From the IMG/VR virus record IMGVR_UViG_2529292919_000027: a stretch of DNA of 27,610 nucleotides; one strand, given 5' to 3'. Under the pieces are notes generated by a model, which was given only the letters and a program-made list of their open reading frames with translations, was not told the DNA's origin and did not search any database. Position numbers and translations under genes: made by a program. The stretch is from a virus (Duplodnaviria > Heunggongvirae > Uroviricota > Caudoviricetes). Position 1 is the first letter of the stretch; each line of letters begins with the position of its first letter. Positions 9,379-27,610 of this stretch are shown piece after piece.

Positions 9379-9599
9379 TCCGGAATATTTTCAAACGGTT
9401 TACCAATCATACTTTCCGTTGTCCTCGTCCGGGTCAGTGGTACACCACGCCTGCTGGGCATGTTCTACGTGTTAGCCTGGTTGACCGTGAATGTCAGAAG
9501 GTGGTTTGTGAACCGCTGGGCCGTAATTACCGCGTCAGTATGCCGCTTATAGCCTTTTGCTCCGGAAAAATGTTTAAGCGTCTGGGAGGTGTGGCGTGA
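9375..9599 (+). CDS. hypothetical small phage protein
   Basis: 74-aa ORF with ATGA overlap to upstream gene. Confidence 0.4.
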   Translation: MIRNIFKRFTNHTFRCPRPGQWYTTPAGHVLRVSLVDRECQKVVCEPLGRNYRVSMPLIAFCSGKMFKRLGGVA

Positions 9600-9895
9600 A
9601 CTGTTTTCAGTTTGTGTGCGGATGTGCTTTCGATAACCCGATTCAGCGCCTAATTATGTTGCGTGTTTTGATGTCGGGTTCTTCAGACGGTGAAGGCGAG
9701 AGAGTTATTGATCATCAGGTGCTTGCTGATTTCTGCTGTTGTTCTAAGCAAGCGATATTCAGGGAAACCCTGGCACTGGAAAGAGCTGGTTATCTTCATA
9801 TCCGAAAAATTGCAACGCTTACTATTGATGCAAAAGCCAGACTACAACCTGCGCGTGGCTACACAATTCTCATGCTGCGGAAGGAGGTTGTATGA
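9596..9895 (+). CDS. hypothetical protein, possible winged-helix DNA-binding
   Basis: 99-aa ORF, GTG start overlapping upstream stop, coupled to replication gene. Confidence 0.4.
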   Translation: MNCFQFVCGCAFDNPIQRLIMLRVLMSGSSDGEGERVIDHQVLADFCCCSKQAIFRETLALERAGYLHIRKIATLTIDAKARLQPARGYTILMLRKEVV

Positions 9896-10875
9896 GCCGT
9901 TACGCCCCCACACCGGAAGTTATGGCTATTGGTCAAATTAATATTTCCGGCAATGTTACACCTGCGACCTGGTGGAAATATATTCGACTACCCAGTGGGC
10001 GTCCGGATGCGACGGCTATCGCTCTGCTTTCAGAGATCGTTTACTGGTACCGCCCGACAGAGGTCAGGGATGAGCACACCGGAGCGTTGCTGGGATATCG
10101 CAAGCGTTTTCAGGGCGACAAACTGCAAAGAAGCTACCAGGCGTTTGCTGAGCAGTTTGGTTTCGGGAAAAGGGAAACCGCAGATGCGCTGAAGCGTCTG
10201 CGCGATGCAGGGTTTATTACTCTGGATTTACGCACGGTGGAAATGCTCGATGGGGTGAAATGCAGCAATATTTTGTTTGTCGGGATCAACCCACAGGCAA
10301 TTGCGGCCATCACCACACCTTCTTCTGTTTCGCCAGAAAGTAACAGCAATAATGCAATCAGCGATACAGCTATTACGTTAAAACGGAACACCCCCCGACG
10401 TCATAACGGAACAGGGGATACGCCGAATGTTGATACAAATACAGAGATTACTACAGAGATTACAACGGAGACTAAAAACACTATTGGCGCATCCGCTGAC
10501 GCGTCTGCACCAGCGCGTTCTGCCAGACAGGAATATTCACCGGAATTTGAACAGGCCTGGCAGGAATATCCCAAACGTGCTGGTGGTAATTCAAAATCCG
10601 CCGCTTTTAAAGCCTGGAAAGCCCGAATCAGGGAAGGTGTGACACCCGAAACCATGCTCGACGGTGTGAAACGCTATGCCGCCTGGGTGCGTGTCTCTGG
10701 AAATACCGGTACCCAGTTCGTGAAGCAGGCGTCGACGTTCTTTGGTCCGGATCGTCATTTCGAAGAATCCTGGGAAGTTCCTGCGGTATCTGCAGCCAGA
10801 CGCGAGGACCCGTACTTCAAAGCCAGTTACGACAACGTGGACTACAGCCAGATCCCGGAAGGATTCAGGGGGTGA
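9892..10875 (+). CDS. replication initiation/replisome organiser protein (Phg_2220_C-type C-terminus)
   Basis: C-terminal EFEQAWQEYPKRAGGNSKSAAFKAWKARI... matches the conserved phage replication C-terminus; internal tandem repeat in linker. Confidence 0.65.
   Translation: MSRYAPTPEVMAIGQINISGNVTPATWWKYIRLPSGRPDATAIALLSEIVYWYRPTEVRDEHTGALLGYRKRFQGDKLQRSYQAFAEQFGFGKRETADALKRLRDAGFITLDLRTVEMLDGVKCSNILFVGINPQAIAAITTPSSVSPESNSNNAISDTAITLKRNTPRRHNGTGDTPNVDTNTEITTEITTETKNTIGASADASAPARSARQEYSPEFEQAWQEYPKRAGGNSKSAAFKAWKARIREGVTPETMLDGVKRYAAWVRVSGNTGTQFVKQASTFFGPDRHFEESWEVPAVSAARREDPYFKASYDNVDYSQIPEGFRG
10441..10476. repeat. three tandem 12-bp repeats inside the replication gene (candidate ori iterons)
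   Basis: acagagattact / acagagattaca / acggagactaaa, encoding TEITTEITTETK in the inter-domain linker. Confidence 0.4.
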
Positions 10876-10877
10876 TC

Positions 10878-10970
10878 ATGAGTCTTTTGAATGAAGTTCA
10901 GAAATTCATTGAAGCCCATCCGGGGTGTACTTCCGGAGACATTGCGGATGCTTTTTACGTGGGGGCTTAA
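10878..10970 (+). CDS. possible 30-aa ORF coupled to the methyltransferase
   Basis: ATG after AGGGGG, stop TAA overlapping MTase ATG (taATG); too short to be certain. Confidence 0.2.
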   Translation: MSLLNEVQKFIEAHPGCTSGDIADAFYVGA

Positions 10971-11623
10971 TGAGTAATAAATATTGCCAGGCGCTGGTAG
11001 AACTGCGGAACAAACCAGCCCATGAACTGAAGGAAGTGGGCGATCAGTGGCGCACGCCGGACAACATTTTCTGGGGAATTAACACCTTGTTTGGTCCGTT
11101 TGTTCTGGATCTGTTCACTGACGGTGATAACGCCAAATGTGCCGCGTATTACACGGCGGAAGACAACGCGCTGGCGCATGACTGGTCAGAACGTCTTGCG
11201 GAGCTTAAAGGTGCTGCCTTTGGTAATCCCCCATACAGCCGCGCCAGTCAGCATGAGGGGCAATACATCACCGGCATGCGTTACATCATGAAACATGCCA
11301 GTGCCATGCGTGATAAGGGCGGGCGCTATGTTTTCCTGATCAAAGCGGCCACCAGCGAAGTGTGGTGGCCGGAAGATGCAGATCATATTGCTTTTATTCG
11401 CGGGCGTATTGGTTTTGAACTGCCAGCCTGGTTTATCCCGAAAGACGAAAAGCAGGTGCCAACAGGTGCTTTCTTCGCTGGTGCTATTGCTGTTTTCGAC
11501 AAGACCTGGAAGGGAGCGGCAATCAGCTACATCGGGCGCGATGAACTTGAGGCATGTGGTGAGGCGTTTCTGGCGCAGGTTCGCCAGCAGGCGGAAAAAC
11601 TGGTCAGGGAGATGGCGGCATGA
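10970..11623 (+). CDS. phage N6-adenine DNA methyltransferase (Dam-like, orphan)
   Basis: DQWRTPD and FGNPPYS motifs; no adjacent restriction endonuclease. Confidence 0.75.
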   Translation: MSNKYCQALVELRNKPAHELKEVGDQWRTPDNIFWGINTLFGPFVLDLFTDGDNAKCAAYYTAEDNALAHDWSERLAELKGAAFGNPPYSRASQHEGQYITGMRYIMKHASAMRDKGGRYVFLIKAATSEVWWPEDADHIAFIRGRIGFELPAWFIPKDEKQVPTGAFFAGAIAVFDKTWKGAAISYIGRDELEACGEAFLAQVRQQAEKLVREMAA

Positions 11624-11946
11624 CGACATTAACTCAATGCCAGCAGCAGGTGCTGGATATGCTGATTTCTTATCAGAAAGAACGTGGCTTCCCGCCAACC
11701 AATCAGGAGGTGGCAACCATGCTGGGATACCGTTCGGTGAATGCAGCGGTGGAGCATCTTCGCGCACTGGAGAAAAAAGGTGTCATCACGATAAAGCGTG
11801 GCGTGGCCCGGGGTATCACTCTTCATACCGCGGTGAAGGACGACGACAGCGAGGCGGTCGGGATTATCCGCGCCCTGCTTGCCGGTGAGGCAAACGCCAG
11901 GCTGCGTGCAGCCCACTGGTTACATGAGAGGGGCCTGAAAGTATGA
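11620..11946 (+). CDS. LexA N-terminal DNA-binding domain protein (no peptidase domain)
   Basis: Sequence closely parallels LexA residues 1-70 (QQ.VLD.I......G.PPT..E.A..LG.RS.NAA.EHL.AL..KGVI); 108 aa, lacks S24 domain. Confidence 0.6.
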   Translation: MTTLTQCQQQVLDMLISYQKERGFPPTNQEVATMLGYRSVNAAVEHLRALEKKGVITIKRGVARGITLHTAVKDDDSEAVGIIRALLAGEANARLRAAHWLHERGLKV

Positions 11947-12332
11947 AGCTAATACTGCCTTTTCCGCCCAGCGTGAACACGTACTGGCGACACCCCAACA
12001 AAGGGGCGTTTGCTGGTAAGAGCCTGATAAGCGCGGCGGGGCGAAAATTTCAGAGCGCGGCGTGCGCAGCAATAGTTGAACAGTTACGTCGTCTGCCGAA
12101 ACCAACGTCGGCACCTGCTTCAGTGGAGATCGTGTTGTTTCCTCCGGATAACAGGATCCGCGATCTGGACAACTATAACAAGGCGCTGTTTGACGCCCTG
12201 ACCCACGCGGGGGTGTGGGAAGACGACAGTCAGGTGAAAAGAATGCTGGTGGAGTGGGGACCGGTTATCCCGGAAGGGAAGGTCGAGATCACTATCAGTA
12301 AGTACGAGAAAACGGCGGGTGCAGCTGCCTGA
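11943..12332 (+). CDS. rusA: RusA Holliday junction resolvase
   Basis: Recalled RusA family sequence (MKLILPFPPSVNTYWR...DLDNYNKALFDALTHAGVWEDD). Confidence 0.85.
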   Translation: MKLILPFPPSVNTYWRHPNKGAFAGKSLISAAGRKFQSAACAAIVEQLRRLPKPTSAPASVEIVLFPPDNRIRDLDNYNKALFDALTHAGVWEDDSQVKRMLVEWGPVIPEGKVEITISKYEKTAGAAA

Positions 12333-12351
12333 TTAAGAGGAGAAACGAAGT

Positions 12352-13161
12352 ATGAATAATCTGATGGTCATTGATGGTATTGAAGTTCGTCGTGATGCTT
12401 ATGGGCGTTACAGCCTGAACGATCTGCATCGCGCAGCAGTAGCATCTGGTGCAAATGCCAGAACCAAGGAGCCAGGAAAGTTTCTTTCCAGCCAACAAAC
12501 TGTTGAGCTTGTTCATGAATTAACCAACACCCAGAATTTGGGTGTTGACCCGGTGAGTGTGATTCATGGGGGAAATGAACGGGGAACGTATGTCTGTAAG
12601 GAACTGGTGTATGCCTATGCAATGTGGATCAGCCCGTCATTCCATCTGAAGGTGATCCGTACTTTCGATATGGTAACCAGCGCGCCGGAAAAGTTATCCG
12701 GACAGGCTGCTGACAAGATGCAGGCTGGCGTGATCCTGCTGGACTTTATGCGCCGGGAGTTAAATCTGTCTAACTCTTCAGTGCTTGGTGCCTGTCAGAA
12801 ACTCCAGGAGGCTGTTGGCTTACCGAATCTGGCACCGCGCTATGCCATTGATGCTCCTGCTGACGCGCCTGATGGCTCAAGCCGCCCGACACTGTCACTG
12901 AGTGCACTGCTGAAGCAGTATGGTATCCGCCTGACAGCTAATCAGGCATATCACCAGATGGCGAAGCTGGGGATCGTTGAACAACGTGAACGATACAGCC
13001 GTACCGCGATTAACAACATCAAAAAATTCTGGTCGCTGACGGCGAAAGGCTGCATGTTCGGCAAGAACATCACCAGTCCCGCAAATCCGCGCGAGACGCA
13101 GCCGCATTTCTTCGAATCCCGATTCCCTGAGCTGTTAAAGCTACTCGATACCGTTCATTGA
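12352..13161 (+). CDS. KilA-N domain protein
   Basis: N-terminal IDGIEVRRDAYGRYSLNDLHRAA motif characteristic of KilA-N. Confidence 0.65.
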   Translation: MNNLMVIDGIEVRRDAYGRYSLNDLHRAAVASGANARTKEPGKFLSSQQTVELVHELTNTQNLGVDPVSVIHGGNERGTYVCKELVYAYAMWISPSFHLKVIRTFDMVTSAPEKLSGQAADKMQAGVILLDFMRRELNLSNSSVLGACQKLQEAVGLPNLAPRYAIDAPADAPDGSSRPTLSLSALLKQYGIRLTANQAYHQMAKLGIVEQRERYSRTAINNIKKFWSLTAKGCMFGKNITSPANPRETQPHFFESRFPELLKLLDTVH

Positions 13162-15426: not shown

Positions 15427-15502
15427 GGCCCTTTAGCTCAGTGGTGAGAGCGAGCGACTCATAATCGCCAGGTCGCTGGTTCAAATCCAGCAAGGGCCAC
15501 CA
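15427..15502 (+). tRNA. tRNA-Ile2 (anticodon CAU; Met-type anticodon, ileX/ileZ-like)
   Basis: Cloverleaf by eye: acceptor ggccctt/aagggcc, D-arm gctcagtggtgagagc, anticodon loop ctCATaa, T-arm ggttcaaatcc, CCA end; near-identical to E. coli ileX as recalled. Confidence 0.8.
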
Positions 15503-15509
15503 TCACATA

Positions 15510-15586
15510 CCGCCATTAGCTCATCGGGATAGAGCGTCAGCCTTCGAAGCTGGCTGTGCGGGGTTCAAGTCCCCGATGGCGGTCCA
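15510..15586 (+). tRNA. tRNA-Arg (anticodon UCG)
   Basis: Acceptor ccgccat/atggcgg, anticodon loop ctTCGaa, T-arm ggttcaagtcc, CCA end. Confidence 0.75.
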
Positions 15587-15599
15587 TTATCAGCATCAT

Positions 15600-15676
15600 G
15601 CGTTGTTAGCTCAGTCGGACAGAGCAATTGCCTTCTAAGCAATCGGTCACTGGTTCGAATCCAGTACAACGCGCCA
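15600..15676 (+). tRNA. tRNA-Arg (anticodon UCU)
   Basis: Acceptor gcgttgt/acaacgc, anticodon loop ctTCTaa, T-arm ggttcgaatcc, CCA end. Confidence 0.75.
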
Positions 15677-16442: not shown

Positions 16443-16874
16443 ATGTTTGGTATTTTTGGTAAAAAAGCCCGCCGAGCGGCAGTGGAAATTAAAAAGTTTG
16501 AGAAACGTGATCTGGCACAGGCGGTTATTAATGCTGCCTATCTGGTGGCCTATGCAGATGGTGAATGTGAGGCTTCAGAGAAAGCGAAGATCGAGCAGAT
16601 CTTGCGTAACCAGCCTGCGTTGTCCGCGTTTACGTCAGAAATTAATGCGATTAGCGCAACCATTATCGGTCAGCTGGATACGAACTTTAAAATTGGTCGT
16701 CGAGCGGCATTGCGTGAAATTGAAGATGTGAAACACGATACGCGTGAAGCGGAAGATGTGCTGGATGTGGCGGTGGCCATTGCGGAGGCAGACGGCGAAA
16801 TTGAGCCGGAAGAGCGCAAGGTGCTGGAAGAGATTGCCGGTGTTCTGGGTCTTCGTCTGGAGAATCACCAGTGA
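16443..16874 (+). CDS. TerB-family (tellurite-resistance TerB-like) protein
   Basis: Two TerB-type repeats (AAYLVAYADGECEASEKAKIEQIL and VLDVAVAIAEADGEIEPEERKVLEEIAGVLG) parallel to E. coli TerB; ATG with AAGGA RBS. Confidence 0.6.
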   Translation: MFGIFGKKARRAAVEIKKFEKRDLAQAVINAAYLVAYADGECEASEKAKIEQILRNQPALSAFTSEINAISATIIGQLDTNFKIGRRAALREIEDVKHDTREAEDVLDVAVAIAEADGEIEPEERKVLEEIAGVLGLRLENHQ

Positions 16875-17047
16875 CGGTAAAACTGCGCCTGGCTGTGGCT
16901 GCACTCCTGCTGTTTCTGGTGGTGATGGTGGATTTCACCAGCAGAATCATGTCGGTGCTGGCGGATGGGGTGCTGGTCTGCGGCATTGTGGTATTGCTGT
17001 GGCCGGTGATAAAAAGAAACAGCCTGCATAATGCTTGATTTTTTTAT
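16871..17047 (+). CDS. small membrane protein (58 aa, two predicted TM segments) coupled to TerB-like gene
   Basis: GTG overlapping TerB stop (GTGA); two hydrophobic stretches; short, so uncertain. Confidence 0.4.
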
Positions 17048-17352
17048 TTGCTGTTTATTAAAAATACTACTGCATGGTGAATCCCCCTGTGCGGAGGGGC
17101 GATCAGCAACCAGGTATATGGGATAATCGCGGATTCAGGTGCTGATACTGAATTCACCGGGAGGCACCCGGCACCATGCTTTGCCGCAAAAGTGTTGTTT
17201 CTGTTTTTCTCAAACTATCATCGTTATCCCTTTATTTCCGGCTGCGCATGGCGTGGCCTTTTTTTTACGACCAGCCACTGGCAGATGGCCATCCTGTAAT
17301 TTGATTCCGGTTCCGGCTTTTTAACTCTGTTCCTGTACACGGGAGAAATTCG

Positions 17353-19206
17353 ATGTCGATTAAACATTATGATGTTGTCAGGGCGGCGTCGCCGTCAGAC
17401 CTTGCGGAAAAGCTGACACACAAACTGAAAGAGGGCTGGCAGCCGTTTGGTAGTCCGGTGGCCATAACCCCTTATACCCTGATGCAGGCGATTACAGCAG
17501 AAGGTGATGTGGTGGTCAGTGGTGCAACTGAGCCGGATTGGTACTACGTCATCGTACTGGCCGGGCAGTCCAATGCCATGGCTTACGGTGAAGGGCTTCC
17601 GCTGCCGGATTCATACGATGCTCCGGATCCGCGCATTAAACAGCTGGCGCGCCGCAGTACAGTTACGCCGGGTGGGGCTGCATGCAGATATAACGATATT
17701 ATTCCGGCCGACCACTGCCTGCATGATGTGCAGGATATGAGTACGCTGAATCATCCGAAGGCAGACCTGAGCAAAGGGCAGTACGGCTGTGTCGGCCAGG
17801 GCTTACATATTGCCAAAAAACTGCTCCCGTATATCCCGAATAACGCGGGGATCCTGCTGGTACCATGCTGTCGTGGTGGTTCGGCATTCACCCAGGGCGC
17901 GGAGGGGACATTCAGTGCGGACACGGGGGCCAGCCAGGATTCGGCACGCTGGGGTGTGGGTAAACCGTTATATCAGGACCTGATTGCGCGCACTAAAGCT
18001 GCATTACAGAAGAACCCGAAAAATGTGTTGCTGGCGGTGTGCTGGATGCAGGGAGAGTTTGACATGAGCGCCGCCACCCACGCACAGCAACCTGCGCTGT
18101 TTACAGCCATGCTGACACAGTTTCGTGCTGACCTCTCCGTGTTTAACGCGCAGTGCCATGGTGGCAGTGCTGCAGATGTGCCGTGGATTTGTGGTGACAC
18201 GACGTATTACTGGAAAAATACATACGCTACCCAGTACGACACCGTGTACGGCGGGTATAAAAACAGGGAGAGTGAGGGCGTTTATTTTGTGCCCTTCATG
18301 ACAGACGGTAACGGCGTCAATACCGCCACTAACGCACCGGCAGAAGATCCGGATATTCCGGCATCAGGATATTACGGTGCGGCATCGAGAACGAATGGAA
18401 ACCAGGTATCATCAAACCGCCCGACACATTTCAGTTCATGGGCGCGCAGGAGCATTATTCCGGATCGTATGGCAACCGCTATTCTGAACGCAGCCGGGCG
18501 CACCTCAGCTTTCATCAGTGGTAAGGCACCGGAAATCAAACCCTCGCCCGGCGGCAACACGCCATCGGGGCCGTCTGAAGATGCATCCGTACGCACAATC
18601 TCCCTGTTGCCGACAGCCGGAGAGGCTGCTGCGCAGGGCTGGACCATTAAGGACGGCGGAATTCAGTTGTCGGGTGGTGTATTTAAGATCGCCAAGCAGA
18701 GCAATAAAACCTGGTCCCTGATGCATCCGGTGGATGACGCAGTCTCCCTGCTGACACGGGGTGGCAGACTGAGCTGTAAGTTTCGACTGTCAGGCGCACT
18801 GACCAACAACCAGTTCGGCCTGGGAATTTATCTGTATACCGATGTAGCGTTACCTGACGTCGTGGCGATGACCGGGACTGGTAACCCGTTCCTGATGTCG
18901 TTCTTCACCCAGACCACAGACGGCAAACTGAATCTGATGCATCACAAGAAAGCAGGAAACACAAAGTTGGGCGAGTTCGGGAATTACAGTAATGACTGGC
19001 AGACGCTGGAACTGGTGTTCACCGCCGGCAGTGCCACGGTTACTCCGAAACTGAATGGAGTGGCTGGCCCGGCATTCCAGGTCATAAAAGACAGTCTGAC
19101 ACTGGGGCTGAATGCGCTGACGCTGACGGATATTACCAAAAATGCAGCGTATGGCGTTGAGATAGAAAGTCTGGTGCTGGAGATAAATGCACCGGCATCA
19201 TCATAA
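17353..19206 (+). CDS. nanS: prophage sialate O-acetylesterase NanS-p-like (DUF1737 + SGNH/SASA esterase)
   Basis: N-terminal DUF1737-like segment and VIVLAGQSNAMAYG esterase motif; position matches nanS-p of Stx phages. Confidence 0.8.
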   Translation: MSIKHYDVVRAASPSDLAEKLTHKLKEGWQPFGSPVAITPYTLMQAITAEGDVVVSGATEPDWYYVIVLAGQSNAMAYGEGLPLPDSYDAPDPRIKQLARRSTVTPGGAACRYNDIIPADHCLHDVQDMSTLNHPKADLSKGQYGCVGQGLHIAKKLLPYIPNNAGILLVPCCRGGSAFTQGAEGTFSADTGASQDSARWGVGKPLYQDLIARTKAALQKNPKNVLLAVCWMQGEFDMSAATHAQQPALFTAMLTQFRADLSVFNAQCHGGSAADVPWICGDTTYYWKNTYATQYDTVYGGYKNRESEGVYFVPFMTDGNGVNTATNAPAEDPDIPASGYYGAASRTNGNQVSSNRPTHFSSWARRSIIPDRMATAILNAAGRTSAFISGKAPEIKPSPGGNTPSGPSEDASVRTISLLPTAGEAAAQGWTIKDGGIQLSGGVFKIAKQSNKTWSLMHPVDDAVSLLTRGGRLSCKFRLSGALTNNQFGLGIYLYTDVALPDVVAMTGTGNPFLMSFFTQTTDGKLNLMHHKKAGNTKLGEFGNYSNDWQTLELVFTAGSATVTPKLNGVAGPAFQVIKDSLTLGLNALTLTDITKNAAYGVEIESLVLEINAPASS

Positions 19207-19288
19207 AAAGTGAGCCAGCCAAATGGAAGGTATCGTTAAACTCACCGGTAGTGTCAGTGGGTCGTCTGAGATGCCTGCATGAGTTATC

Positions 19289-19323
19289 AGAGCCATCAGT
19301 ACTTAACTGGTGGCTTTTTTTAT
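19289..19323 (+). terminator. intrinsic terminator between nanS-p and holin
   Basis: agccatcag ... ctggtggct stem followed by T8. Confidence 0.5.
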
Positions 19324-19356
19324 TGCTGTCAGCTTCCGGATAACGGGAGACGGGGT

Positions 19357-19572
19357 ATGTACCAGATGGAAAAAATCACAACAGGTGTGTCATACACCAC
19401 GTCAGCGGTGGGAACGGGCTACTGGTTCCTGCAGTTGCTGGACAGGGTTTCCCCGTCTCAGTGGGCGGCAATAGGCGTGCTGGGGAGTCTGCTGTTTGGG
19501 CTGCTGACATATCTGACTAACCTGTATTTCAAAATCAGAGAGGACCGTCGTAAGGCGGCGCGGGGGGAGTAA
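19357..19572 (+). CDS. class II holin, S21-like pinholin with dual start
   Basis: 71 aa with MYQMEK dual-start, sequence very close to phage 21 S (…[45 protein letters not shown]). Confidence 0.85.
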
Positions 19573-19576
19573 AGCG

Positions 19577-19615
19577 ATGAAGAAAAAATACGAACTGGGT
19601 GTTAAAGGGATAAAT
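19577..19615 (+). pseudogene. 5' fragment of a YdfR/DUF1327-like gene interrupted by IS66
   Basis: ATG 19577 reads MKKKYELGVKGIN then enters the IS; continues in frame after the IS if one target-site duplication copy is removed. Confidence 0.5.
19608..19615. repeat. left 8-bp target site duplication GGATAAAT
   Basis: Left copy reads GGATAAAT immediately before the IS inverted repeat; the right copy is inferred. Confidence 0.55.
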
Positions 19616-19668
19616 GTAACCGGCTCATTTAAACCGTCTGGTCTGTTTCCTCCGGCTCTACAAAAATA

Positions 19669-20010
19669 ATGTCCATCATTTTTAATGGACACTATCGTAT
19701 GAAACACCGGACCTGGATCACTGAAGCTTTACGTCTTCACTTTGAAGAACATTTACCCCGGGTTGTGGCCGGGCGTCGCCTGGGTGTACCAAAATCAACA
19801 GTTTGTAGTATGTTCGTGCGCTTTCGGAGAGCTGGCCTTTCGTGGCCTTTGCCCGCAGGCATGTCGGAGCAGGAACTTGATGCCTGCCTTTACGGACAAT
19901 TTTCCACGGTACCAGTCGTACGTCCTGAAAGCACCGTTATATCCGAAGCCCCCGTGGTAAAAAACGTCCCCGGCGGCCCAACTTCCCTTATGAGTTTAAA
20001 ATCGCCTTAG
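19669..20010 (+). CDS. IS-encoded HTH ORF upstream of tnpA (possibly the frameshifted N-terminal part of tnpA)
   Basis: 113-aa ORF with HTH-like RRLGVPKSTV; ends where the tnpA frame opens. Confidence 0.4.
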   Translation: MSIIFNGHYRMKHRTWITEALRLHFEEHLPRVVAGRRLGVPKSTVCSMFVRFRRAGLSWPLPAGMSEQELDACLYGQFSTVPVVRPESTVISEAPVVKNVPGGPTSLMSLKSP

Positions 20011-20345
20011 TGGAGCAGTCACTGCAGCCCGGAGCCTGTGTGGCGCAGATCGCCCGGGAAAACGGAATCAACGATAACCTGCTCTTCAACTGGCGCCATC
20101 AATACCGGAAAGGTGGCCTGCTGCCTTCCGGAAAAAATATGCCGGCACTGCTTCCCGTGACGTTAACGCCGGAGCCGGATAATAAAATCCCGGCCCCCGC
20201 ACAGGAACCAGAGCAGATAAATACACCGTCCGACAGTCTGTGTTGTGAGCTGGTTCTGCCGGCCGGAACTCTCAGGCTTAAAGGTAAACTGACGCCGGCG
20301 TTATTACAGACACTTATCCGCGAAATAAAAGGGAGCAGCCACTGA
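20010..20345 (+). CDS. tnpA: IS66-family accessory protein TnpA (orfA), start uncertain
   Basis: PRRPNFPYEFK...VAQIARENGINDNLLFNWRHQYRKG HTH motif; frame open from 19929 without ATG; ORF track start is GTG at 20010. Confidence 0.6.
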   Translation: MEQSLQPGACVAQIARENGINDNLLFNWRHQYRKGGLLPSGKNMPALLPVTLTPEPDNKIPAPAQEPEQINTPSDSLCCELVLPAGTLRLKGKLTPALLQTLIREIKGSSH

Positions 20346-20692
20346 TGATATCTCTCCCTGCAGGTTCGCGTATCTGGCTGGTTGCAGGTATCACCGATAT
20401 GCGAAATGGCTTTAACGGCCTGGCATCAAAAGTTCAGAACGTCCTGAAGGATGACCCGTTCTCCGGACACCTGTTCATCTTCCGCGGACGCCGGGGTGAC
20501 CAGATAAAAGTGTTGTGGGCTGACAGTGACGGACTGTGCCTCTTCACCAAACGCCTGGAGCGGGGCCGCTTCGTCTGGCCAGTCACCCGTGACGGCAAGG
20601 TGCACCTTACTCCGGCTCAGTTATCCATGCTTCTTGAAGGTATCAACTGGAAGCACCCGAAACGAACGGAACGCGCTGGAATCCGCATATAA
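20345..20692 (+). CDS. tnpB: IS66-family TnpB (Orf2)
   Basis: Recalled IS66 Orf2 sequence (MISLPAGSRIWLVAGITDMR...HLFIFRGRRGD.IKVLWAD.DGLCLFTKRLE). Confidence 0.85.
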   Translation: MISLPAGSRIWLVAGITDMRNGFNGLASKVQNVLKDDPFSGHLFIFRGRRGDQIKVLWADSDGLCLFTKRLERGRFVWPVTRDGKVHLTPAQLSMLLEGINWKHPKRTERAGIRI

Positions 20693-20711
20693 CCCGTTGT
20701 AAAGTGAGGAT

Positions 20712-22283
20712 ATGGACACCTCACTTGCTCATGAGAACGCCCGCCTGCGGGCACTGTTGCAGACGCAACAGGACACCATCCGCCAGATGGCTGAATACAA
20801 CCGCCTGCTCTCACAGCGGGTGGCGGCTTATGCTTCCGAAATCAACCGGCTGAAGGCGCTGGTTGCGAAACTGCAACGTATGCAGTTCGGTAAAAGCTCA
20901 GAAAAACTTCGTGCAAAAACCGAACGGCAGATACAGGAAGCACAGGAGCGAATCAGCGCACTTCAGGAAGAAATGGCGGAAACGCTGGGTGAGCAATATG
21001 ACCCGGTACTGCCATCCGCCCTGCGCCAGTCTTCAGCCCGTAAACCGTTACCGGCCTCACTTCCCCGTGAAACCCGGGTTATCCGGCCGGAAGAGGAATG
21101 CTGTCCTGCCTGTGGTGGTGAACTCAGTTCTCTGGGATGTGATGTGTCAGAGCAACTGGAGCTTATCAGCAGCGCCTTTAAGGTTATCGAAACACAACGT
21201 CCGAAACAGGCCTGTTGCCGGTGCGACCATATCGTGCAGGCACCAGTACCTTCAAAACCCATTGCACGCAGTTATGCCGGAGCGGGGCTTCTGGCCCATG
21301 TTGTCACCGGGAAATATGCAGACCATCTGCCGTTATACCGCCAGTCAGAAATATACCGTCGTCAGGGAGTGGAGCTGAGCCGTGCCACACTGGGGCGCTG
21401 GACAGGTGCTGTTGCTGAACTGCTGGAGCCGCTGTATGACGTCCTGCGCCAGTATGTGCTGATGCCCGGTAAAGTCCATGCTGATGATATCCCCGTCCCG
21501 GTCCAGGAGCCGGGCAGCGGTAAAACCCGGACAGCCCGGCTGTGGGTCTACGTCCGTGATGACCGTAACGCCGGTTCACAGATGCCCCCGGCGGTCTGGT
21601 TCGCGTACAGTCCGGACCGGAAAGGTATCCATCCACAAAATCACCTGGCCGGTTACAGCGGTGTGCTTCAGGCCGATGCTTACGGTGGTTACCGGGCGTT
21701 ATACGAATCCGGCAGAATAACGGAAGCCGCGTGTATGGCTCATGCCCGGAGAAAAATCCACGATGTGCATGCAAGAGCGCCCACCTACATCACCACGGAA
21801 GCCCTGCAGCGTATCGGTGAACTGTATGCCATCGAGGCAGAGGTCCGGGGCTGTTCAGCAGAACAGCGTCTGGCGGCAAGAAAAGCCAGAGCCGCGCCAC
21901 TGATGCAGTCACTGTATGACTGGATACAGCAACAGATGAAAACACTGTCGCGTCACTCAGATACGGCAAAAGCGTTCGCATACCTGCTGAAACAGTGGGA
22001 TGCACTGAACGTGTACTGCAGTAATGGCTGGGTGGAAATCGACAACAACATCGCAGAGAACGCCTTACGGGGAGTGGCCGTAGGCCGGAAAAACTGGATG
22101 TTCGCGGGTTCCGACAGCGGTGGTGAACATGCGGCGGTGTTGTACTCGCTGATCGGCACATGCCGTCTGAACAATGTGGAGCCAGAAAAGTGGCTGCGTT
22201 ACGTCATTGAACATATCCAGGACTGGCCGGCAAACCGGGTACGCGATCTGTTGCCCTGGAAAGTTGATCTGAGCTCTCAGTAA
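20712..22283 (+). CDS. tnpC: IS66-family transposase TnpC
   Basis: N-terminal leucine zipper, CPACGGEL zinc motif, DDE region; 523 aa. Confidence 0.85.
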
Positions 22284-22313
22284 ATATCAATACGGTTCTG
22301 ACGAGTCGCTTAC

Positions 22314-22321
22314 GGATAAAT
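22314..22321. repeat. right 8-bp target site duplication (GGATAAAT inferred)
   Basis: My reading gives ggataaaa here; ORF-track frame implies one extra base, consistent with GGATAAAT. Confidence 0.45.
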
Positions 22322-22627
22322 AATTACCCGGATAAGATTACTGTTACTGTGGCACTGGAAATTGGTGGGTATCCGTCACTGTTGTTGCCAGATGTGGCGA
22401 TTAGTCTTGACCGTACTGAAGGTGCCACGCTGGAGTTTTACGAAGCTGAGGCGAAAAAGCAGGCGAAGCAGTTTTTCATGGATGTTGCTGCCGGGTTATG
22501 TGAAGGGGATGGTCCGTTGCCGGAAAAGCGGCCCATCATTTTAGAGGCGCAGGATGTGTTGATAACCTACAGAGGAAAACTACCGGGAATAATTACTGGT
22601 TCTCTGAAGACTCCACCGCTGGCCTGA
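22322..22627 (+). pseudogene. 3' fragment of the IS-interrupted YdfR/DUF1327-like gene
   Basis: ORF track 22349..22627 (…ALEIGGYPSLLLPDVAISLDRTEGATLEFYEAEAKKQAK…); in frame with the 5' fragment across the IS. Confidence 0.5.
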
Positions 22628-22677
22628 AGACTTAATATATCCAGGGATTTGAAATCGATAAACCCTGATAAATATCC

Positions 22678-23211
22678 ATGAACGCAAAAATCAGATACGG
22701 CCTGTCGGCTGCCGTTCTGGCGCTGATTGGTGCAGGGGCGTCTGCGCCTGAAATCCTCGACCAGTTTCTTGACGAAAAAGAAGGTAACCACACCACGGCA
22801 TACCGTGATGGTGCGGGTATCTGGACCATCTGCCGCGGTGCCATCCTGGTGGATGGTAAACCTGTCGTCCCGGGCATGAAGTTGTCGAAGGAAAAATGCG
22901 ACCAGGTTAACGCCATTGAACGTGATAAGGCGCTGGCATGGGTGGAGAAAAACATCAGAGTGCCACTGACCGAACCCCAGAAAGCGGGGATTGCGTCATT
23001 CTGTCCGTACAACATTGGTCCTGGTAAGTGTTTCCCGTCGACGTTTTACAGACGAATTAATGCAGGTGATCGCAGGGGAGCGTGTGAGGCGATTCGCTGG
23101 TGGATTAAGGACGGTGGCAGAGACTGCCGTATTCGTTCAAACAACTGTTACGGTCAGGTATCCCGTCGTGACCAGGAGAGCGCGCTGGCGTGCTGGGGTA
23201 TCGACAGATAA
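22678..23211 (+). CDS. SAR endolysin (T4-lysozyme-like, GH24)
   Basis: N-terminal signal-anchor-release segment (GLSAAVLALIGAGASAP), catalytic region resembling R21/P1 Lyz. Confidence 0.8.
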   Translation: MNAKIRYGLSAAVLALIGAGASAPEILDQFLDEKEGNHTTAYRDGAGIWTICRGAILVDGKPVVPGMKLSKEKCDQVNAIERDKALAWVEKNIRVPLTEPQKAGIASFCPYNIGPGKCFPSTFYRRINAGDRRGACEAIRWWIKDGGRDCRIRSNNCYGQVSRRDQESALACWGIDR

Positions 23212-23299
23212 GCAGAATATTTTGCTGAAAAATAAGGCATGGCCACGCGGGCGGATAACACGAAATCCTGCGAACTGGCGAAACGTAAGTGAATAAAAG

Positions 23300-23340
23300 T
23301 AAAAACCCCGTTTGTTGGCACCAAGCGGGGTTTTGTGTTT
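23300..23340 (+). terminator. intrinsic terminator after endolysin
   Basis: ccccgtttg ... caagcgggg stem with T-rich tail; A-run upstream. Confidence 0.45.
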
Positions 23341-23367
23341 CTGACCTTGAGTAAGGCAAGGGAGAAC

Positions 23368-23550
23368 ATGGCGAAGTATAAACGAATTCTGTTGAGGTTG
23401 ACTATGAAAAATGGCCTTGAACTGAAAGCGCCTGTAACTGATGACATCAGCAGAGCACTGGCTTTTGCCATTAAGTGGGTGGCGGTCGGTGTTGCTGTGT
23501 CCCCGATGCTGTATGGGCTGGCAAAACTGGTCATTGCGTTGAAATCGTGA
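23368..23550 (+). CDS. small protein with C-terminal TM segment (60 aa)
   Basis: ATG after AGGGAG; hydrophobic C-terminus; lies between endolysin and Rz. Confidence 0.4.
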
Positions 23551-23564
23551 AGGGAGGATTAAGC

Positions 23565-23696
23565 ATGTCAGACAAACTCATAACGCTGGCGAAGATCCTC
23601 TGTGTAATTGTCGGCATTTCATTTTCACTAATGCTGGTTGCTCTTTTTCTTTCCATGGCCTGGATGATGTTGTCTTCGTCGGGGTTGCTGGGGTGA
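23565..23696 (+). CDS. small hydrophobic membrane peptide (43 aa)
   Basis: ATG after AGGGAGG; single TM; stop overlaps Rz start region. Confidence 0.4.
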
Positions 23697-23707
23697 ACAT
23701 AAACCGA

Positions 23708-24166
23708 ATGCTTTCCGCGTTTATCGTTATTCTGCTGGTGGCCTGTGGTGCGCTGTGGATGGCAACAGACCATTACCGTGATAACGCGATTACCTACAAA
23801 GCGCAGCGCGATAACAAAGCCAGTGAACTGAAGCTGGCGAACGCAACCATTACTGATATGCAGGTGCGCCAGCGCGATGTTGCTGCGCTCGATGCAAAAT
23901 ACTCGAGGGAATTATCCGATGCGAGAGCTGAAAATGAAACTCTGCGCGCTGATGTTGCCGCTGGTCGTAAGCGCCTGCGGATCAACGCCACCTGTCCAGG
24001 CTCCGTGCGTGAAGCCCCCACCACCTCCGGCGTGGATAATGCAACCGGCCCCCAACTGGCAGACACCGTTACACGGGATTATTTCACCCTCAGAGAGCGG
24101 CTGATGACGATGCACAAGCAACTGGAAGGGGCACAGGACTATATCCGCACTCAGTGCCTGAAATAA
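23708..24166 (+). CDS. Rz: Rz i-spanin
   Basis: N-terminal [17 protein letters not shown]...DVAAGR.RL motif matching Rz; ORF track 23693..24166. Confidence 0.8.
23919..24104 (+). CDS. Rz1: Rz1 o-spanin lipoprotein (embedded in Rz, +1 frame)
   Basis: Lipobox LVVSAC and [14 protein letters not shown] proline-rich motif as in lambda Rz1. Confidence 0.75.
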
Positions 24167-24516
24167 GTTTTGTTGATGCGCCGTATCGTCGCTGTATTCC
24201 CTCATTAACAGAGACCGCAGCCCGACAGGGAGACTCCTCTGCGCGAGTGTGCGGGGATAATCAAAAACGATACACACCGGGGTTTACCGCGTTAACGGAG
24301 CGCGGCGTTGTCCCCTCATAGTCGCCTGTCCGGTGCGATGGTGGAAGAAGCCGGATGTTTATCACTATTAATTGATGACACAGAAATGGATTCATTGAAT
24401 TTCAGCACGTTTTTGTATTCGTGTTATTGAACATCTGTTTATTTTACTTTTAACATATTGATAATAAAAAGAGCTGTAAATCTTTAGATGAGTCGATTTT
24501 GTCCGGGGAAGTTCAA

Positions 24517-24657
24517 ATGGATTTTATGCTGACGGTTTCTGGTGTGGTTATCCTGTCCATTGCTTATACTGCAGATAAATATGGCTGCCATTTGTTATCA
24601 CGTATTGGCGCTTATTGTTCGTTGATGCTGATTTTCTCGTCGCTTTTTTTTGAGTAA
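24517..24657 (+). CDS. possible small hydrophobic peptide (46 aa)
   Basis: ATG after GGGGA RBS; possible extended -10 TGATAAT upstream; AT-rich island. Confidence 0.25.
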   Translation: MDFMLTVSGVVILSIAYTADKYGCHLLSRIGAYCSLMLIFSSLFFE

Positions 24658-24789
24658 GTTATATTAATTATAACAAATAATTTTCTGTGTTATTTTTTCA
24701 GGCTATCCCGTCAGAGGGGAAGCCTGTACTGCCGGGGAGCGAATGGAAAACTGATGTGTCCGGTAACTGCGTGTTCTGTGAACACCATG

Positions 24790-24975
24790 TTACTTAATTA
24801 TGTAATTCATACCCGAACTCTCTGTTGACAGCCTTCTTCTGCAGGCTTCAATAACCCACGCTGAAAAGTTTCCTGAACCTTTCAGATCAAGAGCGATGTT
24901 AATTTGTTCAATCATCTGGTTTGGAAATCGGATGTTGCGGGTTGTTGTTCTGCGGGTTCTGTTCTTTGATGACAT
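24790..24975 (-). CDS. ribbon-helix-helix (CopG/Arc-like) DNA-binding protein
   Basis: Basic N-terminus, predicted beta-strand TRNIRFP then two helices; GGGGA RBS; palindromic site upstream. Confidence 0.5.
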   Translation of the reverse strand: MSSKNRTRRTTTRNIRFPNQMIEQINIALDLKGSGNFSAWVIEACRRRLSTESSGMNYIIK

Positions 24976-25037
24976 AATGTTTCCCCATATTCAGTGTTGC
25001 TGATTTGTATTATCTGAAGTTGCTTTTACGTTAATTT

Positions 25038-25080
25038 GACGCAGATCAATTAATACGATACCTGCGTCATAATTGATTAT
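25038..25080. promoter_or_regulatory. nested palindrome upstream of the RHH gene (candidate operator)
   Basis: gacgcag ... ctgcgtc and atcaattaat ... ataattgat inverted repeats. Confidence 0.3.
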
Positions 25081-25159
25081 TTCTCGTGGTTTGATGGCGT
25101 ACACACATGTTGTGATAAACCTTATATAGATGATAATCATTATCATTTCGTGGGTCCTT

Positions 25160-25360
25160 TCCGGCGATCCGACCGGTTACGGGGCGGCGACCTCGCGGGT
25201 TTTCGCTATTTATGAAAATTTTTAGGGAAAAATCAGATCCGTTCTTCTTCTTTTTAACTGTTTGATTATCAATAGAATTTTAAAAATATAAAAGGATCTG
25301 ACAAAGGCTGTTTTTGTTAGAAAACGCCATTTTCAGATCCTTTCTGGTTCCCGGGGGAGT
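25160..25360. promoter_or_regulatory. cos site: cosN (cohesive end GGGCGGCGACCT at about 25182-25193) and cosB-like repeats
   Basis: Sequence ccggcgatccgac.ggttacggggcggcgacctcgcgggttttcgctatttatgaaaattt matches the recalled lambda cos junction; cagatcc/ggatctg repeats downstream. Confidence 0.75.
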
Positions 25361-25362
25361 GT

Positions 25363-25911
25363 ATGAACGTCAATAAGAAAAAACTGGCCGATATTTTTGG
25401 CGTTGATGTCAGGACCATCACCGCCTGGCAGAGTCAGGGGTTACCACTTAGTTTCTGGTGGAGGGAAAGGGACTGAATCAGTTTTGATACAACTGCTGCC
25501 ATTCAGTGGTATGCGCAGAGGGAAGCTGATATTGAAAACGAAAAACTCCGTAAAGAGAGCGAGGATTTGAGGGCTGCCAGCGAATCAGACCTTCAGCCCG
25601 GCACCATTGATTACGAACGTTACCGACTGACGAAGGCACAGGCCGATGCACAGGAGCTGAAAAATGCTCGTGAGGAAGGCCTTGTCCTCGAGACGGAGTT
25701 ATTTACCTACATCTTTCAGCGAGTGGCACAGAATATATCAGGGATCCTTGTCCGTGTCCCTCAGACACTGCAGCGTAAATACCCTGATATATCACCCGCA
25801 CATCTTGATGCTGTGAAAACTGAAATCGCGAAAGCATCCGATGTGGCTTCTGAAGCCGGTGAGAATGTGCGCAGGTGGATTGATGATTTCAGACGAACTG
25901 AGGGCGGCTAA
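25363..25911 (+). pseudogene. nu1: terminase small subunit (Nu1-like) interrupted by a frame-shifted patch and in-frame TGA
   Basis: N-terminus [26 protein letters not shown] matches lambda Nu1; stop at 25474-25476; conserved GGGKG segment in +1 frame; frame restored before AAIQWYAQ. Confidence 0.65.
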
Positions 25912-27610
25912 TTCTGCAGGAGCGATAGCAACCGGCCTCCTTGCGCTAAAAATTCCTGTCCCTCTGACGACAGTTCAGTGGGCAGATCGACATTATTACC
26001 TTCCGAAAGAGTCATCTTACACCCCGGGGCGGTGGGAAACACTGCCGTTTCAGGTTGCCATCATGAACAGCATGGGGAATGACCGGATCCGCACTGTTAA
26101 TCTGATTAAATCTGCCCGTGTTGGTTATACAAAGATGTTGCTGGGAGTGGAGGCTTATTTTATTGAGCATAAATCACGCAACAGCCTTCTTTTCCAGCCC
26201 ACGGATTCTGCTGCTGAAGATTTTATGAAATCTCATGTGGAACCCACGATCAGGGATGTGCCGGTTTTACTCGATCTTGCACCGTGGTTTGGGCGTAAAC
26301 ATCGTGATAATACCCTCACGCTGAAACGCTTTTCATCGGGCGTCGGTTTCTGGTGCCTGGGCGGCGCTGCCGCCAAAAACTACCGTGAAAAATCCGTGGA
26401 CGTGGTCTGCTATGACGAACTTTCCTCGTTCGAGCCGGATGTCGAAAAAGAGGGCTCGCCAACCCTGCTGGGGGATAAGCGTATTGAGGGGTCGGTGTGG
26501 CCAAAATCCATTCGCGGCTCGACGCCTAAAATCAAAGGCACCTGCCAGATCGAAAAAGCGGCCAACGAGTCGGCGCATTTCATGCGTTTTTATGTGCCCT
26601 GCCCGCACTGTGGGGAGGCGCAGTATCTGAAATTTGGCGATGAGTCCACGCCTTTTGGGCTTAAATGGGAGAAGGACAGTCCCGAAAGCGTTTTCTACCT
26701 CTGTGAACATCATGGCTGCGTGATCCATCAGTCTGAGCTTGACCAGAACAACGGGCGGTGGATCTGTGAAAACACGGGCATGTGGACCCGTGACGGTCTG
26801 ACGTTTTTCAGCGCCCGGGGTGATGAAATTCCGCCGCCGCGCTCCATCACGTTCCATATCTGGACGGCGTACAGTCCGTTCACCACCTGGGTACAGATTG
26901 TCTATGACTGGCTGGATGCACTGAAAGATCCCAACGGCCTGAAAACCTTTGTGAACACCACGCTGGGCGAGACCTGGGAAGAGGCCGTGGGCGAAAAACT
27001 CGATCACCAGGTACTGATGGATAAGGTGGTGCGTTACACGGCGGCGGTGCCTGCCCGGGTGGTTTATCTGACGGCGGGCATTGACTCGCAGCGAAACCGT
27101 TTTGAGATGTATGTCTGGGGATGGGCTCCGGGAGAGGAAGCTTTTCTGGTGGATAAAATCATCATTATGGGGCGTCCTGATGAGGAAGAGACGCTGTTAC
27201 GTGTGGATGCGGCGATCAACAAAAAATACCGCCATGCGGATGGCACCGAAATGACTATTTCCCGTGTCTGCTGGGACACCGGGGGGATCGATGGTGAAAT
27301 TGTTTATCAGAGATCAAAAAAACACGGTGTTTTCCGGGTGCTGCCGGTAAAAGGCGCATCTGTCTATGGCAAGCCGGTGATCACCATGCCAAAAACCCGC
27401 AATCAGCGGGGCGTGTATCTGTGTGAAGTGGGAACGGACACCGCAAAAGAAATTCTCTATGCCCGTATGAAAGCCGATCCCTCGCCTGCGGATGAAGCCA
27501 CGTCGTATGCCATCCGTTTTCCTGATGATCCGGAGATTTTTTCGCAGACAGAGGCGCAGCAACTGGTGGCGGAAGAGCTGGTGGAGAAGTGGGAAAAAGG
27601 AAAGATGCGT
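25883..27610 (+). CDS. terminase large subunit (gpA-like), 3' end beyond window
   Basis: Continuous frame to window end, closely parallel to lambda gpA (…WETLPFQ..IMN.MG.D.IR.V...KSARVGY.KMLLGV.AYFIEHK…); absent from ORF track, presumably because it has no stop in window. Confidence 0.9.

What the first reader, a model, noticed from the sequence alone, without database searches (positions are those of the whole stretch)
25363..25911. Small terminase gene carries a 12-codon out-of-frame patch with an in-frame stop
The Nu1-like N-terminus terminates at TGA after 37 codons. The conserved [12 protein letters not shown] segment is encoded in the +1 frame and the original frame resumes at AAIQWYAQ. 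This implies a 1-nt insertion near 25449 and a 1-nt loss in a T-run near 25483. With the IS insertion in the lysis cassette, this suggests a decaying or defective prophage, although the large terminase looks intact as far as the window extends.
Basis: seen in the sequence. Interest (0 to 1): 0.45.

Follow-up and report, generated by a model that had tools for sequence, protein, structure and literature searches.

The report
Frameshifted small terminase, probably assembly error
The double frameshift in this prophage's DNA-packaging gene is really in the deposited sequence, but it occurs in only one draft E. coli assembly and looks like a sequencing or assembly error, or at most an ordinary private pseudogene.

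Summary
Window 25363-25911 is a lambda Nu1-type small terminase gene of normal length (549 nt). Compared with intact alleles it has one extra T at 25448/25449 and one T missing from a T5 run at 25482-25485. The 12 codons between them are out of frame and hit a TGA at 25474-25476.

The window is the end of draft contig AIEY01000066.1 (E. coli DEC1D). The truncated 37-aa product is on record in this assembly only. A repaired allele, otherwise identical, is on 19 contigs, including five sister drafts and a 5.1-Mb contig. Against that contig the prophage differs by one IS66 insertion, one shared SNP and these two indels.

The gene lies in a module that is present twice, nearly identically, in the sister genome. 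Sister drafts of this accession series carry 8 other private 1-nt indels in that module; with the window's two, that makes 10 in about 30 kb, against 1 in about 43 kb of adjacent unique DNA. Two Logan assemblies have none.

Most likely (about 0.75) this is a consensus error in a draft assembly. A real, very recent pseudogene is the rival (about 0.22). Neither is novel. Read mapping or copy-specific PCR would settle it.

The parts
25182..25193 (+). cosN-like 12-mer GGGCGGCGACCT, which I recall as the lambda cohesive-end sequence, followed by a cosB-like spacer up to the terS start
   Evidence: Exact string found; sequence read. The identity with lambda's cohesive end rests on my own knowledge of lambda.
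25363..25911 (+). Nu1-type small terminase (terS) gene. It has the normal length of 549 nt, but its reading frame is broken by two compensating 1-nt indels.
   Evidence: The repaired protein scores 287 bits on Pfam PF07471. It matches lambda gpNu1 structures 6hn7_B (E 5.6e-42) and 1j9i_A (E 6e-25).
25448..25449 (+). Extra T (CT -> CTT) relative to all intact alleles. This starts the shifted patch.
25449..25485 (+). Out-of-frame patch of 12 codons. It reads [11 protein letters not shown] in frame, against [12 protein letters not shown] in intact alleles. It covers the conserved GGGKG segment that follows the helix-turn-helix.
25474..25476 (+). Premature in-frame TGA after codon 37
25482..25485 (+). 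T4 run that is T5 in all intact alleles. The lost T restores the original frame.
25567..25911 (+). Residual 114-aa ORF with a TTG start, corresponding to Nu1 profile positions 69-162. It was called as a separate gene in the deposited annotation.
25883..27610 (+). Large terminase (gpA-type) gene. It overlaps the terS end, is open for 576 codons, and is cut by the contig end 2 nt after the window.
   Evidence: Identical to the intact sister copy L013 over this range.
25178..27610 (.). Start of the module that is present twice in the sister genome (two prophages). Those copies show only one difference in the next 3.8 kb. The draft contig ends inside this module.
   Evidence: L012 vs L013
19616..22313 (+). 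IS66-family element of 2698 bp encoding TnpA, TnpB and a 523-aa TnpC. It is flanked by an 8-bp target duplication GGATAAAT (19608-19615 and 22314-22321). It is inserted 39 nt into a DUF1327/ydfR-like gene between holin and endolysin, and is absent from all sister assemblies.

Best explanation
The gene is an ordinary lambda Nu1-type small terminase of a lambdoid prophage in E. coli DEC1D. The two compensating single-T length changes are most likely errors in the consensus of a draft assembly, not mutations in the bacterium.

The gene lies just inside a multi-kilobase module (cos, terS, terL, gpW, portal) that a second prophage carries almost identically in the sister genome. In that repeated stretch, the draft assemblies of this accession series have poor consensus quality and pick up private one-base run-length errors. 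Here, two such errors 34 nt apart throw 12 codons out of frame and expose a TGA.

What is shown:
- the anatomy of the lesion;
- that it is unique to this assembly;
- that sister DNA is otherwise identical;
- that private indels are enriched in the repeat.

What is inferred: that the cause is sequencing or assembly. No reads were available.
For: 1. Uniqueness. The 37-aa product is on record on one contig only, AIEY01000066.1, and forms a cluster of one, named as E. coli DEC1D. None of 5,426 complete E. coli genomes has the allele; the best match is 99.5%, which is the three differences. The insertion allele has 0 exact hits in the metagenome, viral and genome collections. The deletion-only allele has 0 hits in the viral and metagenome collections. 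The intact 47-mer hits 39 viral contigs.

2. Sister DNA. The repaired allele with the same S66 substitution (P0002) is on 19 contigs. These include drafts AIEV, AIEX, AIFA, AIFC and AFJB, a 5.12-Mb contig (two copies) and two Logan assemblies.

3. No time for decay. Against the 5.12-Mb contig, window 16657-19615 is 100% identical (2959 nt). Window 22314-27610 differs by one SNP shared with sisters plus only these two indels. That is 2 private indels and 0 private substitutions in 8.2 kb.

4. Run-length changes. Both changes alter the length of a T run (1->2 and 5->4).

5. Same pattern in sister drafts. They carry their own private 1-nt indels in the same module:
   - AIFB: A6->A5 in terS and A3->A2 in terL;
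   - AIFA: A5->A4 in terL;
   - AIFC: four, in terL, portal and protease;
   - AIEX: one in terL.
   The total, including this window's two, is 10 in about 30.2 kb of the repeat module, against 1 in about 43.3 kb of adjacent unique DNA (binomial P about 1e-3). Two Logan assemblies show 0 in 12.8 kb, and both copies in the 5.12-Mb contig are intact.

6. Repeat context. The two prophage copies in the sister genome become near-identical exactly at cosN (window 25178), and the draft contig ends inside this repeat.
Against: - No reads or quality values could be examined, so the error is inferred, not shown.
- A 1->2 overcall is not the classic long-homopolymer error.
- Two errors only 34 nt apart need a local cause, such as one or two poor reads deciding the consensus. 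That cause is assumed.
- The rest of the window is clean, with 0 gaps in about 14 kb of alignments at 99% identity or more.
- This prophage does carry a genuine private IS66 insertion, so it may already be released from selection.
- Three unrelated metagenome or Logan contigs carry other inactivating changes in this same gene: two TGG->TGA and one 1-nt deletion. Real terS pseudogenes of this family may therefore exist.
- My recollection that the DEC collection drafts were pyrosequenced could not be checked, because the paper is not held.
Confidence: 0.75

Rival explanations
1. The two indels are real, very recent mutations in DEC1D, and terS of this prophage is a true pseudogene. Translation stops after 37 residues, which removes everything after the helix-turn-helix. 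At best, a 114-aa C-terminal fragment without the DNA-binding domain is made from the TTG at 25567. This copy then cannot recognise cosB. Packaging would depend on the identical terS that the strain probably has in a second prophage.
For: - The sequence as deposited says so.
- The same prophage has a genuine private IS66 insertion with a target duplication in the lysis region, so selection on late genes may be relaxed.
- Other assemblies from unrelated samples show independent inactivating changes in this gene.
- The unique part of the window is clean, so the assembly is not generally noisy.
- Runs of one base are also hotspots for real slippage mutations (general knowledge).
Against: - There are two private indels and no private substitution in 8.2 kb, although substitutions normally outnumber indels several-fold.
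- Two independent events 34 nt apart of opposite sign are very unlikely by drift.
- The second event cannot have been selected as a compensation, because the patch contains a TGA.
- Sister drafts show the same kind of private indel, concentrated in the same two-copy repeat, and assemblies from other pipelines show none.
- Neither single-indel intermediate exists in any collection scanned.
Confidence: 0.22
2. The consensus is a blend of reads from the two prophage copies, or from a third Nu1 paralogue, in DEC1D. One of these copies really differs, so the lesion is real but belongs to another copy or is chimeric.
For: - The gene lies in a two-copy repeat.
- Sister draft AIFC shows SNP mosaics between the two copies further downstream, and its second copy carries the other copy's base at the one discriminating site in terS.
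Against: - In the sister genome both copies encode the identical intact terS protein.
- The window matches copy L013 at the single discriminating site (25384) and everywhere else.
- The 33 nt between the two indels are identical to the intact allele, so no diverged paralogue contributed.
Confidence: 0.02
3. Programmed recoding: a +1 ribosomal slip at CUU-AGU, followed by a -1 slip on the U run, restores full-length Nu1 from the shifted gene.
For: There is only a formal resemblance. From memory, CUU AGU U resembles the yeast Ty1 +1 site CUU AGG C. A G-rich AGGGG lies 6 nt upstream of the CUU, and a U4 run lies at the return point.
Against: - The arrangement is not conserved in any relative: 0 hits against 39 intact viral contigs and at least 195 near-identical intact genes in complete genomes.
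- AGU is not a stop codon and, as far as I recall, not a notably slow codon in E. coli.
- A GUU UUG does not fit the X XXY YYZ heptamer expected for a -1 slip.
- Two low-efficiency events in series would give negligible product.
Confidence: 0.01

Closest known systems
Bacteriophage lambda gpNu1 (terminase small subunit; PDB 1J9I DNA-binding domain, 6HN7 chain B)
   Same: The repaired protein aligns over residues 1-98 with E 5.6e-42. The alignment includes the segment [17 protein letters not shown] against GMPVLRGGGKGNEVLYD. It matches Pfam PF07471 at 287 bits. The genome position is the same: directly downstream of a cosN 12-mer, and overlapping the start of a gpA-type large terminase.
   Different: DNA identity is only about 75% over the part of the query that aligns to lambda-like phages. 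As deposited, the frame is broken at the GGGKG segment and terminates at codon 37.
Intact terS of E. coli E2348/69 prophage (WP_001102143.1) and the S66 allele P0002 in sister drafts
   Same: E2348/69 is identical at 648 of 651 nt. P0002 equals the repaired window protein exactly. Gene length (549 nt) and context are the same.
   Different: These alleles have CT rather than CTT and T5 rather than T4, so their frame is open for 182 aa.
Phage 21 gp1 and Gifsy-1 Nu1 homologue
   Same: Both are Nu1-type small terminases. They are the nearest named phages in the phage collection, at 78% and 74% DNA identity. The deposited annotation calls the 37-aa fragment 'gifsy-1 prophage protein'.
   Different: They are much more distant than the E. 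coli prophage alleles, and both are intact.
Single-base run-length (homopolymer-type) consensus errors in draft assemblies
   Same: The changes are private one-base changes in run length that create apparent frameshifts. They are concentrated in a repeated region, vary from one sister draft to the next, and are absent from assemblies made by other pipelines.
   Different: One of the two changes is at a single T, not a long run. The sequencing platform could not be verified here.

Membership tests
Lambda Nu1-type terminase small subunit (Pfam PF07471) | Significant match to the Phage_Nu1 profile above the gathering score (30 bits) | tested here: met
   The repaired protein scores 287.2 bits over profile positions 1-162. 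The 37-aa fragment scores 49.7 bits (positions 1-29). The 114-aa fragment scores 149.1 bits (positions 69-162).
Lambda Nu1-type terminase small subunit (Pfam PF07471) | N-terminal DNA-binding domain homologous to the solved lambda gpNu1 domain | tested here: met
This is a sequence comparison only; no structure was predicted.
Lambda Nu1-type terminase small subunit (Pfam PF07471) | Placed between cos and an overlapping gpA-type large terminase gene | tested here: met
   The cosN 12-mer lies at 25182-25193. terL starts at 25883 and matches GpA_ATPase and GpA_nuclease.
Lambda Nu1-type terminase small subunit (Pfam PF07471) | One uninterrupted reading frame of about 180 codons (a functional gene) | tested here: not met
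   As deposited, the frame stops at codon 37. Whether this holds in the organism cannot be tested without reads.
True pseudogene in a decaying prophage | The lesion is present in the organism's DNA (read support, or an independent assembly of the same strain) | not testable with these tools
   No reads were available, and only one assembly of DEC1D is on record.
True pseudogene in a decaying prophage | Accompanying signs of relaxed selection, such as private substitutions or other broken genes in the same element | tested here: inconclusive
   There is one private IS66 insertion. There are 0 private substitutions in 8.2 kb, and all other late genes in the window are intact.
Programmed ribosomal frameshifting | The shifted arrangement and slippery sites are conserved in relatives | tested here: not met
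   There are 0 hits for the shifted allele in the three collections, against 39 viral contigs and at least 195 complete genomes with the unshifted gene.
Draft-assembly consensus error | The lesion is private to one assembly while clonal sisters are intact, and similar private lesions occur in other drafts of the same series in the same region | tested here: met
   10 private 1-nt indels in about 30.2 kb of the repeat module, against 1 in about 43.3 kb of unique DNA. There are 0 in the Logan assemblies and in the 5.12-Mb contig.
Draft-assembly consensus error | Low depth, low quality or strand-biased read support at the two sites | not testable with these tools
The description of the sequencing project is not held.

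The most novel reading that the evidence does not exclude
The two indels are real, and full-length Nu1 is still made by two consecutive recoding events. The first would be a +1 slip at CUU-AGU, which from memory resembles the Ty1 heptamer. The second would be a -1 return on the U run. That would make this a natural double-frameshift gene. A milder version is a real lesion that leaves a C-terminal Nu1 fragment lacking the DNA-binding domain. Such a fragment might bind large terminase and interfere with packaging by the co-resident twin prophage.
Probability: 0.01. Interest if true: 0.55.

Novelty: not a real feature. Interest (0 to 1): 0.06.

Why it matters
It matters little biologically. If the lesion is an error, the lesson is practical. 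Apparent frameshifts in prophage structural genes of draft assemblies should not be scored as prophage decay without read support, especially inside modules shared by two co-resident prophages and near contig ends.

If the lesion is real, it is one more private pseudogene in a prophage that already carries an IS insertion. Its effect would probably be masked by the identical terminase genes that the sister genome has in a second prophage.

Tried and rejected
- **Sequencing platform.** I looked for the paper describing the DEC draft genomes (Hazen et al. 2012, J Bacteriol 194:3026; PMC3370608). It is not held. The pyrosequencing attribution therefore rests on my memory only.
- **Single-indel intermediates and other carriers.** I searched the metagenome, viral and species-representative genome collections and found none.
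- **Generally noisy assembly.** Rejected: the unique part of the window has 0 gaps in about 14 kb of alignments at 99% identity or more.
- **Contribution from a diverged paralogue.** Rejected: the 33 nt between the indels are identical to the intact allele.
- **Single mutational event.** I looked for a quasi-palindrome or repeat that could produce both changes at once. Both sites adjoin an AGTTT motif, but misalignment between those motifs would give a 34-nt deletion or duplication, not +1/-1.
- **Programmed frameshifting.** Rejected for lack of conservation and of proper slippery sites.

Full report
**1.

- Window 25363-25911 translated in frame 1 gives [37 protein letters not shown], then TGA at 25474-25476. 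It continues [24 protein letters not shown]... to the stop at 25909-25911.
- The +1 frame reads [13 protein letters not shown] across the gap.
- The closest complete-genome copy is in E. coli E2348/69. It is an annotated 'terminase small subunit' of 549 nt and 182 aa (WP_001102143.1).
- The pairwise alignment shows three differences in 651 nt: an extra T (CCACTAG -> CCACTTAG, window 25448/25449), one T fewer in a T5 run (25482-25485), and ATC -> AGC (I66S).
- The gene therefore keeps its normal length, but 12 codons are shifted and contain a stop.

**2. What the gene is**

- The repaired protein matches Pfam PF07471 (Phage_Nu1) at 287 bits. The two fragments match the N- and C-terminal parts of the same profile.
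- It aligns with the solved lambda gpNu1 N-terminal region: 6hn7_B with E 5.6e-42, and 1j9i_A with E 6e-25. The shifted patch falls on the conserved segment [17 protein letters not shown] (lambda GMPVLRGGGKGNEVLYD), immediately after the helix-turn-helix.
- The 12-mer GGGCGGCGACCT lies at 25182-25193. I recall this as lambda's cohesive end.
- The gpA-type large terminase starts at 25883, overlaps the terS end, and is open for 576 codons to the window end.
- Named phages are distant. Phage 21 is 78% and Gifsy-1 is 74% identical in DNA.

**3. Where the window comes from**

- An exact look-up of the 37-aa product finds one contig only: AIEY01000066.1 of GCA_000249115.2, 81,086 bp.
- The window is identical to the end of that contig and stops 2 nt before it.
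- The product is deposited as EHU17236.1, 'gifsy-1 prophage protein [Escherichia coli DEC1D]', and forms a cluster of one.
- This is therefore a draft WGS assembly, and its contig ends inside terL.

**4. How common the lesion is**

- None of 5,426 complete E. coli genomes carries it. There are 195 records at 99% identity or more; the best is 99.5%, which corresponds to the three differences above.
- Exact-pattern scans for the insertion allele give 0 hits in the metagenome, viral and genome collections.
- The deletion-only allele gives 0 hits in the viral and metagenome collections.
- As a control, the intact 47-mer is found in 39 viral contigs.

**5. Sister assemblies**

- The repaired protein with the same S66 (P0002) is in the collection on 19 contigs. 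They include drafts with neighbouring accessions (AIEV, AIEX, AIFA, AIFC twice, AFJB), a 5.12-Mb contig UFZD01000005.1 that holds two copies, and two Logan assemblies.
- Copy L013 of the 5.12-Mb contig is the same prophage as the window. Window 16657-19615 is 100% identical over 2959 nt.
- Window 22314-27610 differs from L013 by one SNP (24303, shared with two sisters) and by nothing else except the two terS indels.
- The only other difference is a 2698-bp IS66-family element at 19616-22313, with an 8-bp target duplication GGATAAAT. It is absent from every sister.
- The private changes in DEC1D are therefore one IS insertion, two 1-nt indels 34 nt apart, and zero substitutions in 8.2 kb.

**6. 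Repeat context and the behaviour of sister drafts**

In the 5.12-Mb contig the two prophages (L012, L013) are divergent up to window 25177. They then become almost identical exactly at cosN, with a single difference in the next 3.8 kb. terS therefore sits inside a two-copy repeat, which also explains why the draft contig ends there.

The sister drafts have their own private single-base indels in this same module:

| Draft | Private 1-nt indels in the repeat module |
|---|---|
| AIFB | A6->A5 in terS; A3->A2 in terL |
| AIFA | A5->A4 in terL |
| AIFC | four, in terL, portal and protease |
| AIEX | an inserted A at the start of terL |

AIEX also has one A7->A6 change in unique DNA.

- Together with the window's two, that makes 10 private indels in about 30.2 kb of the repeat module, against 1 in about 43.3 kb of the adjacent unique DNA. 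The binomial probability is about 1e-3 (my arithmetic, extending with the counts).
- The two Logan assemblies have none in 12.8 kb. Both copies in the 5.12-Mb contig have intact terS, terL, portal and protease genes.
- The gene tables show the consequence. terL, portal or protease are split differently in each affected draft and are whole elsewhere.

**7. Interpretation**

- The simplest reading is that the consensus of these drafts is unreliable in the two-copy module, and that the window's two T-run length changes are errors of that kind.
- A real origin would need two independent indels of opposite sign within 34 nt, in a lineage with no private substitution. The second change cannot have been selected as a compensation, because the shifted patch contains a stop.
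- I put the artefact at about 0.75 and a real, very recent pseudogene at about 0.22.
- Points in favour of a real lesion:
  - the CT -> CTT change is not at a long run;
  - the unique part of the window is clean;
  - the prophage has a genuine private IS insertion;
  - three unrelated metagenome or Logan contigs (L009-L011) carry other inactivating changes in the same gene (TGG->TGA twice, one 1-nt deletion).
- I recall that the DEC collection drafts were pyrosequenced, which would fit. I could not verify this, because the paper is not held.

**8. If the lesion were real**

- The product would end after the helix-turn-helix.
- A 114-aa C-terminal fragment could perhaps start at the TTG at 25567, which has a GAGGA just upstream.
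- This copy would lack cosB recognition.
- The sister genome holds a second prophage with a near-identical cos region, an identical terS protein and a terL of the same length. DEC1D probably has the same. Complementation in trans would then be expected, and 'defective prophage' would not follow from this lesion alone.
- The IS66 element sits 39 nt into a small DUF1327/ydfR-like gene between holin and endolysin. The holin (71 aa), endolysin (177 aa) and Rz-like (152 aa) genes are intact. A polar effect on late transcription is possible but untested.

**9. Recoding**

- CUU-AGU-U resembles, from memory, the Ty1 +1 site CUU-AGG-C, and a U run lies at the return point.
- However, the arrangement occurs in no relative. 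The codon after CUU is, as far as I recall, neither a stop nor a notably slow codon. The return site does not fit a -1 heptamer. Two slips in series would yield almost nothing.
- I give this about 0.01.

**10. Verdict**

This is most probably not a real biological feature, and if real it is an ordinary private pseudogene. Interest is low. Read mapping or copy-specific PCR would decide the matter.

Noticed in passing
window 19608-22321: An IS66-family element of 2698 bp with intact TnpA, TnpB and TnpC ORFs, imperfect terminal inverted repeats starting GTAA, and an 8-bp target duplication GGATAAAT. It is inserted 39 nt into a DUF1327/ydfR-like gene between holin and endolysin. It is private to DEC1D among all sister assemblies examined.
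   Followed up: yes
window 25178-27610; L012 and L013 (UFZD01000005.1): The sister genome has two lambdoid prophages with different lysis cassettes. Their sequences become nearly identical exactly at cosN and stay so for about 3.8 kb (cos, terS, terL, gpW, start of portal). This shared packaging module explains the contig break inside terL.
   Followed up: yes
L009 (about 342), L010 (about 231-232), L011 (about 246): Three unrelated metagenome or Logan contigs carry independent inactivating changes in the same terS family: TGG->TGA at two different Trp codons, and a 1-nt deletion. This suggests that real terS pseudogenes of this prophage family occur in nature.
   Followed up: partly
L002 4393-7096 (E. 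coli BEN2908, NZ_LR740776.1): The IS66 copy in this complete RefSeq genome sits in the lysozyme gene of a related prophage. It differs from the window's copy by 13 single-base gaps, 11 of them bases missing from BEN2908 and most in short runs, and it is annotated as frameshifted pseudogenes. This could be either a decayed IS or run-length errors in that assembly.
   Followed up: no
window 15427-15676: A cluster of three tRNA genes with anticodons CAT (called Met by ARAGORN, annotated tRNA-Ile in related RefSeq records), TCG (Arg) and TCT (Arg). It lies upstream of the late region, as in related lambdoid prophages.
   Followed up: partly
L014 (AIFC01000020.1) 9345-12529: This sister draft shows a mosaic of SNPs that switch between the two prophage copies, plus four private 1-nt indels. 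This indicates that reads from the two copies were mixed in the assembly.
   Followed up: partly
window 24303: The single substitution between the window and the 5.12-Mb sister contig (C versus A) is shared with drafts AIFC and AIFA. It is therefore a real polymorphism within the clone rather than noise.
   Followed up: yes
PDB 6hlk and 6hn7: The N-terminal domain of this terS family is the one solved in complex with RppC ('redirecting phage packaging protein C'). The shifted patch lies within the terS stretch (residues 4-51) that also aligns weakly to RppC itself.
   Followed up: no
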